From: Candidatus Saccharibacteria bacterium QS_5_54_17
GTDB taxonomy: Bacteria; Patescibacteriota; Saccharimonadia; QS-5-54-17
Direction: 5' to 3'
DNA: 64,000 bases
Assembly: GCA_003022365.1 (NCBI GenBank)
Contig: PXOU01000018.1
Location: 11,900-75,899 of the forward strand
In this document: one piece after another, positions 2,649 through 5,592 of the stretch
How the letters are laid out: every line of letters begins with the position of its first letter
Numbering within the stretch: the first letter of the stretch is position 1
Notes under the pieces: generated by a model
Databases searched by the model: none
What the model was told of the DNA's origin: nothing
What the model saw: the letters and a program-made list of their open reading frames with translations, nothing else
Position numbers and translations under genes: made by a program

Positions 2649-3170
2649 CCCACAGGAATAAGAAGTAAGCAGTAAGAAGCAAGAAGTAAGTTTCGGAATC
2701 GGTTCTGAAATAGATCCTGAAACTGATCCCGGATCGGGGTCCGGGATGACATCTTCAGGATGATGGTTATTTTTCGTCACCTTCTTTGTCATTCCGGCCA
2801 CCGAGCCGGAATCCATGAACCCGATATGATCCAGAAACAGATTCTGAAACAAGCCTGCCTACCGGCAAGGCAGGTTCAGGATGACATTTCTTTTTCGCCA
2901 CCCTCTCTGTCATTCCGAACTTGGTTCGGAATCTCATTCTGCAACAGAGAAACAGATCCCGGATCGGAGTCCGGGATGACATCTTCAGGTTCAGGATGAC
3001 GCCTTTAGAGCCCGTCCTGAACTTGTTTCAGGGATGACAATTCAGGAATGATGTTCAGCCCGGTTTTTGTTGCCGGGTTTTGATAATGATTCCGGGTGCT
3101 CGCGCACAAACACCTCCTTGTTGTTTACTGCATCCGAGGTGTTCGATATGTCGTGTCACTATACGCAAGT
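2649..3170. repeat. Mosaic intergenic repeat array; the last ~110 bp (3055-3166) is a module also found at 22040-22164
   Basis: Sequence identity to other arrays. Confidence 0.8.
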
Positions 3171-3207
3171 TTTGAAGAGTATACCTTGGTGTGCCATTAT
3201 TATTGCA

Positions 3208-3987
3208 ATGACCAATGTTTTTGATCTCAAACAATTTGCAAACGAAAAAGGTTTAGAATTGCCTCACCAGAGTGCAATTCTTGAAGAAGCAACAGAAAAC
3301 ATAGTTTCCAAATATTCACATGATAAAGAACAGATAAAAGACAACTTCGATTCTATGATTTTTGAAACGGAAAAAGAGGCGTACAACGTATATCTTAAGC
3401 ACGAGCAACAGTACGGCGAAAGAGTATTCAACGCTTTCTTCGAATACCTGCAAGAAAATAAAGAAATTAATGCTATCAATGAAGCCGGATCTGTTCTCGG
3501 AAGTTATTTTTACTCACTCGATAGGTTTTTTCTCTCACTAAAGCAGTCACGAACTGTGAGGGCAGGGAAAACATTCGAAGGCATCACGAGGAATCTCTTC
3601 AAAATTCTCGATTATCCTTTCGAAGAACAAGTTACGATTGATGGAGGCAATACCCCGGATTTTCTCATGCCTTCAGCTGAGCATTATGAAGCCAATGCAC
3701 CAGATTGCATCATTTTTACATCGAAACGTACTTTACGCGAACGATGGCGCCAGATTGTGACAGAAGGAACAAGGGGTCTTGGTTTCTATCTCGCGACCAT
3801 GGACGAAGGAATATCCAAGGCTCAATTGAATGAAATGCAGCATAACAGGATATTCGTTGTGGTACCCGAACAAATAAAAACAAAAAAATATTCAGAAACC
3901 GTCAATGTTCTCAGCTTCACCCGATTTTTTAATGACTATCTCGATCCTGCAGTTGAAAGATGGCGACGGAACGGAGTTATCAGTTGA
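3208..3987 (+). CDS. Putative type II restriction endonuclease (family not recognised)
   Basis: AT-rich ORF directly upstream of a C5-MTase and vsr. No recognisable conserved domain by eye. An alternative start is ATG 3148 (GAGGT SD, inside the repeat module). Confidence 0.45.
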   Translation: MTNVFDLKQFANEKGLELPHQSAILEEATENIVSKYSHDKEQIKDNFDSMIFETEKEAYNVYLKHEQQYGERVFNAFFEYLQENKEINAINEAGSVLGSYFYSLDRFFLSLKQSRTVRAGKTFEGITRNLFKILDYPFEEQVTIDGGNTPDFLMPSAEHYEANAPDCIIFTSKRTLRERWRQIVTEGTRGLGFYLATMDEGISKAQLNEMQHNRIFVVVPEQIKTKKYSETVNVLSFTRFFNDYLDPAVERWRRNGVIS

Positions 3988-4073
3988 ATGACCGTTGTTA
4001 CTTCCGAGAAGTTGCAATACGAACAAAAAACGAATATCATAAAAGCATAAGCATATAAATAAGGAGAGCTTTT

Positions 4074-5228
4074 GTGGTTATGGATAATAGGCTAAGATTA
4101 AATCAGCTAAGTTTTTGGGAGAAAAGGGAGGTGCGGTCAGTGATTCCAGCAAAGAATAGTGTAAAAGGATATCGATTTATAGATTTATTCGCAGGAATCG
4201 GTGGAATCAGGTCCGCTTTCGAGAATTCTGGTAATACATGTGTTTTTTCTTCCGAGTGGGACAAGCACTGCCAAGCTACTTACAAGGCAAATTTCGGAGA
4301 AAAGCCCTATGGGGACATAACAAAAATCAATGAGAAGGATATTCCGGATCATGACATACTATTAGCCGGTTTTCCGTGCCAACCTTTTTCAGTGGCCGGT
4401 GTGTCCAAAAAACTCAGCTTGAAGCGCCAACATGGCTTTGCGGACGAAGAGCAGGGAAATCTGTTTTTTGATATAGCTCGTATAATTGCAGAGAAAAGAC
4501 CAACTGCTTTCATGCTTGAAAATGTTAAAAATCTTAAAAGCCATGATGGCGGCAAAACGTTTGAAGTTATTCGCAATACTCTGGAAGATCTGGGATACAG
4601 CGTGCACGAAAAAGTCATTGATGCGATTGATTATGTCCCCCAGCACAGGGAAAGAATTTTCATAGTAGGGTTCGATAAAAAGAAAGCCGGAGATATCAAT
4701 TTCAATTTTCCCCAACCGCCGCGCACAAAAAATGCGATTGCCGATATACTCGAAAAAGATGCTGATGAAAAACACACACTTTCAGATAAGCTTTGGAATT
4801 ATCTGCAGGGTTATGCTGATATTCATAAAGAAAAAGGTAACGGTTTTGGGTTCGGTCTTATTGATCCCGAAACTGATACAGCAACACGCACACTCAGTGC
4901 ACGATATTACAAGGATGGATCAGAAATTCTCATAAAACAGGCTGATAATAACCCTCGAAAACTTACGCCACGGGAGTGCGCCAGACTGATGGGGTTTGAT
5001 GATTCATTTCAAATTCCTGTTTCAGATACACAAGCTTACAAACAGTTCGGTAATTCAGTAGTGGTTCCTGTAGTTGGCGCAGTTGCCTCGCAGCTGGTTC
5101 ATGCGCTAGATTCAGTATATGGACGGACTGTCGAGAGAAGCCCGAAGCAGAAACATGTCAAAAATCGGGGCAAAAAACACAAAACCCGAGTTACTGGTAC
5201 GGAAATTCCTGCACAACAAGGGTTATAG
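4074..5228 (+). CDS. DNA (cytosine-5)-methyltransferase, HpaII/MspI-like
   Basis: C5-MTase motifs: FAGIGG (I), PCQPFS (IV), ENV (VI), QFGNSV (VIII). [15 protein letters not shown] and KGNGFGF resemble M.HpaII from memory. AGGAG SD before GTG 4074. Confidence 0.9.
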   Translation: [384 protein letters not shown]

Positions 5229-5541
5229 GTACAGGTTATATAGCAATCTTCCGGGAAAGCCGGACATTGTTTTTGGAAGTAAAAAAGTGGCCGTTTTTAT
5301 TCATGGTTGCTTCTGGCACCAGCATGGATGCCATATGTCATACATCCCAAAAAACAATCGTAAATTCTGGCTGGACAAACTGAAACAGAATGTTGCCAGG
5401 GATGAAAAGGTTTCGAACGAATTGCACGAATCGGGATGGTTCGTTGTAACAGTATGGGAATGTGAAGTGTACAGGGATATTGATGAAACAGTAGAAAAAA
5501 TAAAAGAGACGTTACAAGCTACTACTCATACTGCAAGTTAA
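5119..5541 (+). CDS. vsr: Very-short-patch repair endonuclease Vsr
   Basis: SRSRNMS…KNTKPE N-terminus and FIHGCFWHQH motif. Overlaps the MTase 3' end by 110 nt in another frame. Confidence 0.9.
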   Translation: MDGLSREARSRNMSKIGAKNTKPELLVRKFLHNKGYRYRLYSNLPGKPDIVFGSKKVAVFIHGCFWHQHGCHMSYIPKNNRKFWLDKLKQNVARDEKVSNELHESGWFVVTVWECEVYRDIDETVEKIKETLQATTHTAS

Positions 5542-5592
5542 CACTGAATCAAATTATTCAGGGTCACCCGCTTTGTCATTCCCGCTGCCGGG

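What the first reader, a model, noticed from the sequence alone, without database searches (positions are those of the whole stretch)
3170..5545. Low-GC restriction-modification island (endonuclease, HpaII/MspI-like C5-MTase, Vsr) inserted between ftsZ and secA
The 2.4-kb segment is clearly more AT-rich than the flanking chromosome (~60-65% GC by eye). It encodes an unrecognised ~260-aa candidate endonuclease, a C5-cytosine MTase and a Vsr mismatch endonuclease. The MTase's conserved blocks (FSSEWD, TY.ANFG..PYGDIT, AGFPCQ.FS, FLENVK, RERI.IVGF, KGNGFG, …[17 protein letters not shown]) resemble the CCGG-family M.HpaII/M.MspI from memory. Vsr is the expected companion, repairing T:G mismatches from 5mC deamination. 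CCGG is very frequent in this GC-rich genome, including in the repeat hairpins (…TTCCGGCC…GCCGGAA…). Host methylation at such sites is therefore worth testing.
Basis: partly seen in the sequence, partly recalled or inferred. Interest (0 to 1): 0.55.

Follow-up and report, generated by a model that had tools for sequence, protein, structure and literature searches.

The report
Acquired CCWGG-type restriction-modification cassette with Vsr

Summary
Window ~3060-5553 is 41% GC, against 56% for the rest. GC3 is 0.36-0.44 in the island genes and 0.72-0.76 in ftsZ, secA and murD. It is the only multi-kb low-GC segment in the 64 kb. It carries three intact same-strand genes.

- Restriction endonuclease (3208-3987): Pfam EcoRII-C. 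It has the full PD...K...E active site and the R-E-R CC:GG-reading motif. [quoted passage not shown]
- C5-methyltransferase (4074-5228): about 60% identical, including the specificity domain, to both E. coli Dcm (CCWGG) and M.Ecl18kI (CCNGG).
- Vsr (5119-5541): all catalytic, zinc-binding and intercalating residues are present. It overlaps the methylase 3' end by 110 nt.

CCGG (HpaII/MspI) specificity is not supported.

- DNA flanking 57 related cassettes is depleted in CCWGG (o/e 0.73, against 0.94 in controls).
- It is barely depleted in CCSGG (0.91 vs 1.02).
- It is not depleted in CCGG (1.04 vs 1.02).

I therefore favour CCWGG, with CCNGG as the live rival. The R+M+Vsr trio recurs across hundreds of metagenomic relatives. 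This is a new member of a known kind, of low general interest.

The parts
3060..5553 (.). Low-GC island (41% GC against 56% for the rest). The edges are approximate. The left edge lies between the last host hairpin-repeat module (ending about 3050) and the REase start. The right edge lies between the vsr stop (5541) and the next repeat module (5554).
   Evidence: Composition. Only multi-kb low-GC segment in the window. Repeat modules on both sides.
3208..3987 (+). Type IIP restriction endonuclease, 259 aa, a stand-alone EcoRII-C/PspGI/Ecl18kI-type catalytic domain. Active site: E124, P150-D151, K173, E186. CC:GG reading motif: R177-E178-R179, plus Q113. Putative flipped-base pocket: E55, A58, Y59, Y62, R118, A119. 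An alternative start at ATG 3148 (279 aa) has a GAGGTG Shine-Dalgarno sequence 6 nt upstream.
   Evidence: Pfam PF09019, 94.7 bits against a cut-off of 25. PDB sequence hits to EcoRII, Ecl18kI and PspGI. The residues are invariant in the 27-sequence alignment A1. hhalign to R.Ecl18kI, probability 99.2. AF2 model pLDDT 89, with Foldseek hits only to 2fqz, 3hqg and 3bm3. Residue roles from PMC2577326, PMC2770665 and PMC6344858. Start codons.
4012..4040 (+). Sigma-70-like promoter match (TTGCAA-17-TATCAT) in the 92-nt R-M spacer. It is a possible separate promoter for the methylase. This is a consensus match only.
   Evidence: Only 2 matches were found in the region, fewer than the 6.2 expected from shuffles, so the evidence is weak.
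4074..5228 (+). C5-cytosine DNA methyltransferase. It is 384 aa from GTG 4074, or 382 aa from ATG 4080 as in the NCBI record. AAGGAG lies at 4062-4067. Motifs present: I (DLFAGIGG), IV (GFPCQPFS), VI (ENVKN), VIII (QHRERI), X (GNSVVVP). It has a Dcm/SsoII-type target-recognition domain and no N-terminal regulatory domain.
   Evidence: PF00145, 334 bits. TIGR00675, 358 bits. PDB 3me5 (Shigella Dcm), 333 bits with the TRD aligned. 61.5% identity to M.Ecl18kI and 59.1% to K-12 Dcm. PADLOC DrmMII profile, 490 bits. 100% identical to P0001, which is annotated in NCBI.
5119..5541 (+). Vsr very-short-patch-repair T:G mismatch endonuclease, 140 aa. D49, H62, H67 and D95 are catalytic. C64, H69, C71 and C115 bind zinc. 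F65, W66 and W84 intercalate.
   Evidence: TIGR00632, 146.6 bits against a cut-off of 97.85. PF03852, 94.7 bits. PDB 1cw0, E 1.9e-27. Residue mapping to E. coli Vsr. Roles of D51, H64, H69, D97, F67 and W68 from PMC4081097 and PMC2677866. Roles of the zinc ligands and W86 come from my own recollection of the Vsr structure papers.
5119..5228 (+). 110-nt out-of-frame overlap between the methylase 3' end and the vsr 5' end. The arrangement resembles E. coli dcm-vsr, where the overlap is 20 nt.
   Evidence: Overlaps of about 90-140 nt (by tblastn extents) are seen in L001, L003 and L005.
5577..5603 (+). Terminator-like hairpin followed by a T-run, 36 nt after the vsr stop. It lies inside a copy of the host's intergenic repeat module.
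2650..3060 (.). Cluster of the host's short hairpin repeat modules (TGTCATTCCG-N-CGGAATC, TTCAGGATGAC, and others) on the left of the island. One further module lies at 5554-5610 on the right. These are host context and not part of the cassette.
   Evidence: families D1-D10. (36 copies of TGTCATTCC and 35 of TTCAGGATGAC across the window, both strands counted).

Best explanation
A horizontally acquired, self-contained three-gene Type II restriction-modification cassette with its own mutation-avoidance nuclease.

**Step 1, inferred from close homology.** The methylase transfers a methyl group to C5 of the inner cytosine of CC(W/N)GG sites throughout the Saccharibacteria chromosome.

**Step 2, inferred from conserved residues and fold.**
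- The 259-aa endonuclease is a stand-alone EcoRII-C/PspGI/Ecl18kI-type enzyme, presumably a homodimer.
- It reads the two CC:GG half-sites with its R177-E178-R179 motif.
- It flips the central base pair into a pocket on the long N-terminal helix (E55/A58/Y59/Y62).
- It cuts unmethylated sites ahead of the first C with its PD...K...E active site. Incoming phage or foreign DNA is destroyed by this cut.

**Step 3, inferred.** 5-methylcytosine deaminates to thymine, giving T:G mismatches at exactly these sites. Vsr nicks 5' of the mismatched T so that repair synthesis restores the C. vsr overlaps the methylase 3' end by 110 nt, so the two are probably co-transcribed and perhaps translationally coupled, as in E. 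coli dcm-vsr.

**Specificity.** The most likely recognition sequence is CCWGG (about 0.6). CCNGG is the main alternative (about 0.25-0.3). CCGG is unlikely (0.05 or less).

**Timing.** The cassette arrived recently from a low-GC donor. Its GC3 is about 35 points below the host's, and the host sequence shows no CCWGG depletion yet.
For: **Families and fold.**
- Family assignments are far above the curated cut-offs.
- REase active-site and recognition residues are invariant in 27 homologues. They correspond to PspGI E105/D138/K160/E173 and Q94/R164/E165/R166.
- hhalign to R.Ecl18kI gives probability 99.2 and covers the pocket helix.
- The AF2 model (pLDDT 89) matches only the three base-flipping pentanucleotide enzymes at E<=1e-5.

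**Methylase.**
- It is collinear with M.Ecl18kI and shares the Dcm/SsoII TRD.
- M.SsoII/Ecl18kI methylate the inner C of CCNGG.
- Class 2 DISARM DrmMII gives 5mC at CCWGG, and a PADLOC DrmMII profile scores 490 bits.

**Vsr.** All functional residues are conserved.

**Conservation of the unit.**
- MTase is adjacent to the REase in most of 83 related loci.
- Vsr is detectable in 45 of the 83, in several gene orders.
- The same R>M>V order with overlap occurs in Moranbacteria and two other genomes.

**Target.**
- In 366 kb flanking 57 related cassettes, CCWGG o/e is 0.73 (bootstrap CI 0.65-0.79), against 0.94 (0.90-0.97) in 1.2 Mb of control loci.
- CCSGG is 0.91 vs 1.02.
- CCGG is 1.04 vs 1.02.
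- Inside the cassettes CCWGG is 0.51, CCSGG 0.81 and CCGG 1.06.

**Foreign origin.**
Against: - No biochemical or methylome data exist. Activity and specificity are inferred.
- The MTase is equidistant from a CCWGG enzyme and a CCNGG enzyme. Over the whole TRD it is 39% identical to Dcm and 50% to M.Ecl18kI. Over the TRD core it is 57% and 55%. The MTase therefore does not decide W versus N.
- The pocket composition resembles PspGI/EcoRII. The literature states, however, that the three pockets are 'strikingly similar' and that the basis of W/S discrimination is unresolved. PspGI F64W keeps CCWGG specificity.
- The site-depletion test is indirect and pools a diverse family. One control motif, GCWGC, is also more depleted in those flanks (0.76 vs 0.93). 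Part of the signal may therefore reflect host taxonomy.
- The host window itself shows no depletion (CCWGG 0.95).
- No empty site was found in relatives, so the insertion event is inferred from composition only.
- No controller protein or other obvious R/M timing device was identified.
Confidence: 0.85

Rival explanations
1. Same cassette, but SsoII/Ecl18kI-like specificity. The pair recognises CCNGG with any central base pair.
For: - The MTase is slightly closer to M.Ecl18kI overall (61.5% vs 59.1%) and over the whole TRD (50% vs 39%). It aligns with it without indels, whereas Dcm needs about 55 extra residues.
- The best Foldseek hit for the REase model is Ecl18kI (1.4e-11, against 3.5e-9 and 4.9e-9).
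- CCSGG is mildly depleted in family flanks (0.91 vs 1.02) and in cassettes (0.81).
Against: - CCWGG is depleted much more than CCSGG (0.73 vs 0.91 in flanks, 0.51 vs 0.81 in cassettes). A true CCNGG system should deplete both alike.
- Pocket residues are E/A/Y/Y. PspGI has E/A/F/Y and EcoRII has R/E/Y/F, whereas Ecl18kI has R/C/W/F.
- The MTase shares the Dcm-specific insertion [13 protein letters not shown] after motif IV and the TRTLSARYY block. M.Ecl18kI lacks the first and has TNTISARYY for the second.
- The SsoII-type N-terminal regulatory domain is absent.
Confidence: 0.27
2. One reading: an HpaII/MspI-like system that methylates and cuts CCGG.
For:
- From my own unverified recollection, M.HpaII also carries KGNGFG and IPVSD..[9 protein letters not shown]-like blocks.
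- The REase superfamily (the 'CCGG-family') does include enzymes that read uninterrupted CCGG within 6-8 bp sites.
Against: - The TRD aligns residue for residue with the CCWGG/CCNGG enzymes.
- The REase retains the N-terminal pocket helix of the base-flipping pentanucleotide subgroup. It matches only those three structures. NgoMIV, Cfr10I, Bse634I, SgrAI and MspI are absent from the significant hits.
- CCGG is not depleted in family flanks (1.04 vs 1.02 in controls). It is if anything enriched inside cassettes (1.06, and 1.26 in the closest relatives).
Confidence: 0.04
3. A decayed system. The endonuclease is inactive and what remains is a Dcm-Vsr-type orphan methylase and repair pair, as in E. 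coli K-12.
For: - Orphan Dcm-Vsr pairs exist.
- No expression or activity data are available.
- No controller gene was found.
Against: - All three ORFs are intact and full length relative to homologues.
- Every REase catalytic and recognition residue that is invariant in the family is present.
- The strong compositional contrast argues for recent arrival, leaving little time for decay.
Confidence: 0.05

Closest known systems
PspGI and the EcoRII catalytic domain (EcoRII-C): CCWGG-specific, base-flipping members of the CCGG-family of PD-(D/E)XK restriction endonucleases
   Same: - Pfam EcoRII-C.
- Permuted PD...K...E active site.
- R-(D/E)-R CC:GG recognition motif. It is RER as in PspGI, whereas EcoRII has KDR.
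- Long N-terminal helix carrying an aromatic stacking residue. Y59 corresponds to EcoRII Y226 and PspGI F64. E55, A58 and Y62 correspond to PspGI E60, A63 and Y67.
- Single-domain size like PspGI (259 vs 272 aa).
- Foldseek E 3.5e-9 and 4.9e-9.
   Different: - Only 20-25% identical.
- No EcoRII-N effector domain, so it is not a Type IIE enzyme like full-length EcoRII.
- The partner of PspGI is an N4-cytosine methylase (abstract of PMC2532716). Here the partner is a C5 methylase.
- Specificity here is untested.
Ecl18kI / SsoII / Kpn2kI R-M systems of small enterobacterial plasmids (CCNGG)
   Same: - Best structural match for the REase: Foldseek 1.4e-11, hhalign probability 99.2, 30% identity over 191 columns.
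- The MTase is 61.5% identical, collinear and has the same TRD type.
- The inner C is methylated at C5.
   Different: - The REase is 46 aa shorter.
- The pocket has Tyr where Ecl18kI has Trp61 and Glu where it has Arg57.
- The MTase lacks the 55-71-aa N-terminal HTH regulator domain.
- Genes are co-directional R>M here and divergent in pECL18.
- Those plasmids carry no vsr.
- Site-depletion data favour W over N.
E. coli Dcm-Vsr (CCWGG methylation plus very-short-patch repair)
   Same: - The MTase is 59% identical over 301 aligned residues. It shares the insertion after motif IV and the [16 protein letters not shown] TRD block.
- vsr lies immediately downstream and overlaps the MTase 3' end.
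- Vsr is 36% identical with all functional residues kept.
   Different: - E. coli K-12 Dcm is an orphan with no REase. It has a roughly 90-aa N-terminal extension and three insertions.
- The NCBIfam Dcm subfamily model PRK10458 scores 410, below its cut-off of 710, so this is not an orthologue.
- The overlap is 110 nt here and 20 nt in E. coli.
   Same: A C5-MTase with the common ten-motif core. From my recollection, a vsr-like gene also accompanies the HpaII system.
   Different: - The TRD and the REase family point to interrupted CC(W/N)GG.
- No structural similarity to MspI was detected.
- CCGG is not avoided around related cassettes.
- A direct sequence comparison was not possible.

Membership tests
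EcoRII-C / CCGG-family restriction endonucleases (PF09019) | Profile match above the curated cut-off | tested here: met
   PF09019 scores 94.7 bits against a cut-off of 25, E 8e-27. PADLOC REase_II profiles also match.
EcoRII-C / CCGG-family restriction endonucleases (PF09019) | Permuted PD...K...(D/E) active site plus an upstream Glu | tested here: met
   E124, P150-D151, K173 and E186 are invariant in A1. They align to PspGI E105, D138, K160 and E173.
EcoRII-C / CCGG-family restriction endonucleases (PF09019) | R-(D/E)-R motif at the helix N-terminus that reads CC:GG | tested here: met
   R177-E178-R179 are invariant. They correspond to PspGI R164-E165-R166 and Ecl18kI RER.
Base-flipping pentanucleotide subgroup (Ecl18kI, EcoRII-C, PspGI) | N-terminal helices forming a pocket with an aromatic residue that stacks on the flipped central base | tested here: met
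   HMMER and hhalign both place Y59 on Ecl18kI W61, E55 on R57 and A58 on C60. The ETEKEAYxxYL block is conserved and Y62 is invariant. The model has a long helix at residues 47-83. Only these three enzymes are significant fold matches. This rests on sequence and model only. Flipping itself was not tested.
Base-flipping pentanucleotide subgroup (Ecl18kI, EcoRII-C, PspGI) | Cleavage of CCWGG or CCNGG ahead of the first C | not testable with these tools
   Indirect evidence only: CCWGG o/e 0.73 in the flanks of related cassettes against 0.94 in controls.
EcoRII proper (Type IIE) | [quoted passage not shown] | tested here: not met
   The protein is 259 aa and only the EcoRII-C domain was found. 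The alignment to 1na6 starts at EcoRII residue 243.
C5-cytosine DNA methyltransferases (PF00145 / TIGR00675) | Profile match above the cut-off and conserved motifs I, IV (PCQ), VI (ENV), VIII (QxRxR) and X (GNSV) | tested here: met
   PF00145 scores 334 bits and TIGR00675 scores 357.7 against a cut-off of 100.65. The motifs are visible in the alignment.
Dcm/EcoRII/SsoII-type (CC[W/N]GG, inner C) methylases | Shared target-recognition domain between motifs VIII and IX | tested here: met
   The TRD core block is 57% identical to Dcm and 55% to M.Ecl18kI. M.HhaI aligns poorly there.
E. coli Dcm orthologues (NCBIfam PRK10458) | Score at or above the curated subfamily cut-off | tested here: not met
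   410.5 bits against a cut-off of 710, matched in two stretches.
SsoII-like bifunctional methylases | N-terminal HTH domain (residues 1-55) acting as transcription regulator | tested here: not met
   Only about 32 residues precede motif I, and they do not align to the M.Ecl18kI N-terminal domain. The domain is defined in PMC6100179.
Vsr very-short-patch-repair endonucleases (TIGR00632 / PF03852) | Profile match above the cut-off. Catalytic Asp51, His64, His69 and Asp97. Intercalating Phe67 and Trp68. Zinc ligands. | tested here: met
   TIGR00632 scores 146.6 against 97.85. 1cw0 gives E 1.9e-27. All listed residues are conserved. Their roles are given.
HpaII/MspI-like CCGG systems | MTase TRD and REase homologous to M/R.HpaII or M/R.MspI | tested here: inconclusive
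   The M.HpaII and M.MspI sequences were not obtainable from the collections, so no direct comparison was made. Indirectly negative: no MspI-like fold hit, the TRD matches CCWGG/CCNGG enzymes, and there is no CCGG avoidance.
DISARM class 2 (DrmMII methylase) | Presence of drmA, drmB, drmC and other drm genes next to the methylase | tested here: not met
   The neighbours are ftsZ, the REase, vsr and secA only. The 490-bit DrmMII profile hit reflects MTase similarity, not system membership.

The most novel reading that the evidence does not exclude
The roughly 255-aa EcoRII-C-like enzymes form a large, uncharacterised clade: 724 database clusters, many from Patescibacteria/CPR. They travel as an R+M+Vsr triad. 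This clade could have a recognition or cleavage property not seen in PspGI, EcoRII or Ecl18kI, for example a partial preference among central bases or an extended site. In that case Vsr would be an integral third component of a mobile R-M unit, needed for its maintenance in small genomes with limited repair capacity.
Probability: 0.1. Interest if true: 0.4.

Novelty: new member of a known kind. Interest (0 to 1): 0.18.

Why it matters
It matters mainly for correct annotation.
- It predicts that this halophilic Saccharibacteria (CPR) population carries 5mC at CCWGG. There are about 240 such sites in this 61-kb stretch. HpaII/MspI-type assays or CCGG-centred methylome analyses would look at the wrong motif.
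- It documents a recent horizontal acquisition of a defence cassette into the cell-division/secretion gene neighbourhood of a reduced genome.
- Vsr genes that overlap the methylase by about 100 nt are routinely missed by gene callers. The association of Vsr with mobile C5 R-M systems is therefore probably under-counted in metagenome annotations.

None of this changes current understanding of R-M biology.

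Tried and rejected
1. **Motif avoidance in the host window.** I looked for avoidance of the candidate motifs. There is none: CCWGG 0.95, CCGG 1.07, CCNGG 1.04. This fits recent arrival and is uninformative on specificity.
2. **W versus N from the MTase.** Region-wise identity to Dcm and M.Ecl18kI came out equidistant.
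3. **W versus N from the REase pocket residues.** The pocket is PspGI/EcoRII-like, but the literature says the determinants are unresolved. I use it only as weak support.
4. **An 'empty' ftsZ-secA junction in other Saccharibacteria.**
   - The genome-contig scan with SecA gave relatives no closer than 58% identity.
   - None of those relatives has ftsZ within 8 kb upstream of secA.
   - The insertion site therefore cannot be reconstructed.
5. **Target-site duplications or terminal repeats bounding the island.** Only the host's generic intergenic hairpin modules flank it. No integrase or transposase lies in or next to the island.
6. **A controller (C) protein or an RNA element.** I found none. 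Rfam gives no hit anywhere in the window.
7. **DISARM membership.** I considered it because of the DrmMII profile hit and rejected it because no drm genes are present.
8. **Direct comparison with M.HpaII and M.MspI.** The sequences are not in any accessible collection.

Full report
**Observation**

- Window 3067-5545 has 40.9% GC, against 56.3% for the remaining 61.5 kb.
- A 400-nt sliding profile drops to 0.37-0.44 between about 3000 and 5600. It is 0.57-0.66 in the flanking genes.
- Third-codon-position GC is 0.37, 0.36 and 0.44 for the three island genes. It is 0.74, 0.76 and 0.72 for ftsZ, secA and murD.
- It is the only low-GC stretch longer than 1 kb in the window. The other dips are 600-1000 nt at 45-46% GC and coincide with clusters of intergenic repeats.
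- The first 12 kb of the window is 100% identical to an independently assembled ENA contig that carries the same gene order, so this is not a chimeric join.
- The methylase is 100% identical to a protein of Candidatus Saccharibacteria bacterium QS_5_54_17.

**The three genes**

All three are on the + strand and intact.

*Endonuclease.*
- It runs 3208-3987 (259 aa). This start is the one supported by the N-termini of homologues. An upstream ATG at 3148 has a GAGGTG Shine-Dalgarno sequence 6 nt away and is the start used by one gene caller.
- It hits Pfam EcoRII-C at 94.7 bits against a cut-off of 25. It hits the PDB sequences of EcoRII, Ecl18kI and PspGI.

*Methylase.*
- It runs 4074/4080-5228. 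It is a C5-cytosine methyltransferase: PF00145 at 334 bits and TIGR00675 at 358 bits.

*Vsr.*
- It runs 5119-5541. TIGR00632 scores 146.6 against a cut-off of 97.85, and PDB 1cw0 gives E 1.9e-27.
- It overlaps the methylase 3' end by 110 nt in another frame.

**The endonuclease in detail**

The family is large. There are 724 clusters at E<=1e-5, typically 254-261 aa, many from Patescibacteria.

In a 27-sequence alignment, E124, P150-D151, K173, R177-E178-R179 and E186 are invariant, and Q113 is nearly invariant (conserved in 90% or more of the sequences). In the HMMER alignment to PspGI these fall on two sets of residues defined in the structure paper:
- Catalytic residues E105, D138, K160 and E173.
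- Recognition residues Q94, R164, E165 and R166.

This is the permuted PD...K...(D/E) site and the R-(D/E)R CC:GG-reading motif that define the 'CCGG-family' of restriction enzymes.

The N-terminal pocket helix is also present.
- A profile-sequence comparison with R.Ecl18kI, translated from plasmid pECL18, gives probability 99.2 over 191 columns. It extends into the N-terminal helix that forms the flipped-base pocket.
- E55, A58 and Y59 align to Ecl18kI R57, C60 and W61. The independent HMMER alignment gives the same register.
- The pocket positions i, i+3, i+4 and i+7 compare as follows:

| Enzyme | Site | i | i+3 | i+4 | i+7 |
|---|---|---|---|---|---|
| EcoRII | CCWGG | R222 | E225 | Y226 | F229 |
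| PspGI | CCWGG | E60 | A63 | F64 | Y67 |
| Ecl18kI | CCNGG | R57 | C60 | W61 | F64 |
| This protein | untested | E55 | A58 | Y59 | Y62 |

An AlphaFold2 model built on the alignment is confident (pLDDT 89, pTM 0.81) and has a long helix at residues 47-83. Foldseek against the PDB finds exactly three kinds of significant match:
- Ecl18kI at 1.4e-11.
- EcoRII-C at 3.5e-9.
- PspGI at 4.9e-9.

The next hit is at E 0.26. No hexanucleotide CCGG enzyme (NgoMIV, Cfr10I, Bse634I, SgrAI, AgeI, BsaWI) appears among the significant hits, and neither does MspI.

The protein is therefore a stand-alone catalytic domain of the base-flipping pentanucleotide subgroup. It lacks the EcoRII-N effector domain, so it should behave like PspGI or Ecl18kI rather than like Type IIE EcoRII.

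**The methylase in detail**

The best solved relative is the Shigella Dcm structure 3me5 (333 bits). The alignment runs through the target-recognition domain:
- This protein: [52 protein letters not shown]
- Dcm: [53 protein letters not shown]

M.HhaI scores 278 bits but aligns poorly in that domain.

tblastn against plasmids found about 57% identical, indel-free matches on 4.2-5.6-kb enterobacterial plasmids. These include pECL18 (Ecl18kI, CCNGG), the 4196-bp Klebsiella plasmid NC_005018 and 4197-bp Shigella sonnei plasmids.

In a three-way alignment the identities are as follows:

| Region | to M.Ecl18kI | to K-12 Dcm |
|---|---|---|
| Overall | 61.5% | 59.1% |
| Whole TRD | 50% | 39% |
| TRD core | 55% | 57% |

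Further points:
- It shares with Dcm an insertion after motif IV ([13 protein letters not shown]) that M.Ecl18kI lacks.
- It lacks the N-terminal regulatory domain of SsoII-type enzymes.
- It falls below the NCBIfam cut-off for Dcm orthologues, at 410 against 710.

So the methylase belongs to the Dcm/EcoRII/SsoII clade that methylates the inner C of CC(W/N)GG (for SsoII; for the CCWGG-methylating DISARM DrmMII, whose PADLOC profile scores 490 bits). On its own it does not discriminate W from N.

**Vsr**

It is 36% identical to E. coli Vsr. The following residues are conserved:
- D51, H64, H69 and D97.
- F67, W68 and W86.
- C66, H71, C73 and C117.
- M14 and I17.

Searches give the roles of the catalytic and intercalating residues. 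The zinc ligands and W86 are from my own knowledge of the Vsr structures.

**Conservation of the cassette**

The same R>M>V order, with vsr overlapping the methylase 3' end by roughly 90-140 nt (by tblastn extents), occurs in three other places:
- A Moranbacteria genome.
- A 538-kb NCBI MAG contig.
- A Logan contig that also carries serine recombinase genes.

Gene callers reported vsr in only one of these assemblies. They also missed it in the ENA assembly of the present locus.

Among 83 related loci, 80 of them from a metagenome scan with the REase alignment:
- A methylase of this type is adjacent in most.
- Vsr is detectable in 45, in several gene orders (R>M>V, M>V>R, M>R>V and divergent).

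The trio is thus a recurrent mobile unit.

**Which site?**

I tested this indirectly. Observed/expected ratios use a maximal-order Markov model on both strands. The cassette flanks are 366 kb from 57 loci. The controls are 1.2 Mb of unrelated SecA loci. Brackets give bootstrap 95% CIs over loci.

| Motif | Cassette flanks | Control loci |
|---|---|---|
| CCWGG | 0.73 (0.65-0.79) | 0.94 (0.90-0.97) |
| CCSGG | 0.91 (0.87-0.96) | 1.02 |
| CCGG | 1.04 | 1.02 |
| GGWCC | 0.78 | 0.80 |
| GCWGC | 0.76 | 0.93 |

- GGWCC, another common R-M target, does not differ between the two sets.
- GCWGC does differ, so part of the signal may be taxonomic. This is a caveat.
- Inside the cassettes CCWGG is 0.51, CCSGG 0.81 and CCGG 1.06.
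- In the 21 closest relatives the values are 0.33, 0.72 and 1.26.
- The island itself has one CCWGG against 3.3 expected.

The pocket composition points the same way. I therefore favour CCWGG at about 0.6, keep CCNGG at about 0.27, and consider CCGG unlikely.

The host part of this window shows no depletion (CCWGG 0.95). Together with the 35-point GC3 gap, that indicates recent arrival.

**Insertion context**

- The island sits inside an intergenic cluster of the host's short hairpin repeat modules. Copies lie at 2650-3060 on the left and 5554-5610 on the right. The same modules fill the ftsA-ftsZ spacer and occur dozens of times across the window.
- There is no integrase, transposase or flanking duplication.
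- Other Saccharibacteria in the species-representative set are distant (SecA no closer than 58% identity). None has ftsZ upstream of secA, so no empty site is available.

**Mechanism (inferred)**

1. The methylase marks the inner C of CCWGG.
2. The dimeric endonuclease reads the two CC:GG halves through R-E-R. It flips the central pair into the Tyr59 pockets and cuts unmethylated sites ahead of the first C.
3. Vsr nicks 5' of T in the T:G mismatches produced by 5mC deamination, which offsets the mutational cost of the methylase.
4. The overlap suggests co-transcription and possibly translational coupling of vsr to the methylase.
5. A weak promoter-like match (4012-4040) lies in the R-M spacer, and a terminator-like hairpin (5577-5603) follows vsr.

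**Verdict**

The functional class (R-M plus Vsr, foreign origin) is confirmed. The proposed HpaII/MspI-type CCGG specificity is not supported and is probably wrong. This is a new member of a well-known kind of system, and its interest is low.

Noticed in passing
window 600-1400, 2650-3060, 5554-5610, and e.g. 9830-10100, 12350-12480, 19500-19720, 26870-27170, 33160-34300, 56630-56840, 61370-61520: Intergenic spacers are packed with short modular hairpin repeats: TGTCATTCCG-N8-10-CGGAATC, TCCTGAA-N4-TTCAGGATGAC and CCCGGATCGGGGTCCGGGATGAC. TGTCATTCC occurs 36 times and TTCAGGATGAC 35 times, counting both strands. They account for the smaller GC dips in the window. They also create spurious ORF extensions. 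One example is the 474-aa GTG 'FtsZ' ORF, whose first 60 residues are repeat-encoded; the gene caller starts FtsZ at 1404.
   Followed up: partly
window 5119-5228; L001 ~6916-7040; L003 ~7737-7879; L004/L006 ~7717-7814; L089 12081-12394: vsr overlaps the methylase 3' end out of frame by roughly 90-140 nt. In four of five assemblies examined, gene callers omitted it or replaced it with a 64-68-aa fragment. tblastn recovers it. Vsr is probably under-annotated next to C5 methylases in metagenomes.
   Followed up: partly
L091-L170 flanks (pooled) versus L009-L088: GCWGC is also more depleted around these cassettes (o/e 0.76) than in control loci (0.93). This may reflect co-resident GCWGC-type R-M systems or the taxonomic make-up of the hosts. 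It weakens the CCWGG depletion argument somewhat.
   Followed up: no
L001 224-4857: In one Logan contig, the closest homologous cassette (71-72% identity) lies next to two serine recombinase/resolvase genes and an HTH_3 gene. This suggests carriage on an integrative or mobile element in that genome.
   Followed up: no
P0007: A 663-aa protein is 61% identical to the methylase over 84% of the query, almost twice the usual length. It may be a fusion with another domain.
   Followed up: no
window 1-64000: No Rfam family reaches its gathering score anywhere in the 64 kb. No tRNA, rRNA, riboswitch or other curated RNA was found.
   Followed up: no
window host part (1-3066, 5546-64000): CTAG (o/e 0.49) and CGCG (0.67) are the most under-represented of the tetranucleotides checked. 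GGCC (0.82) and GGSCC (0.76) are mildly low. This may hint at other R-M pressures in this genome.
   Followed up: no
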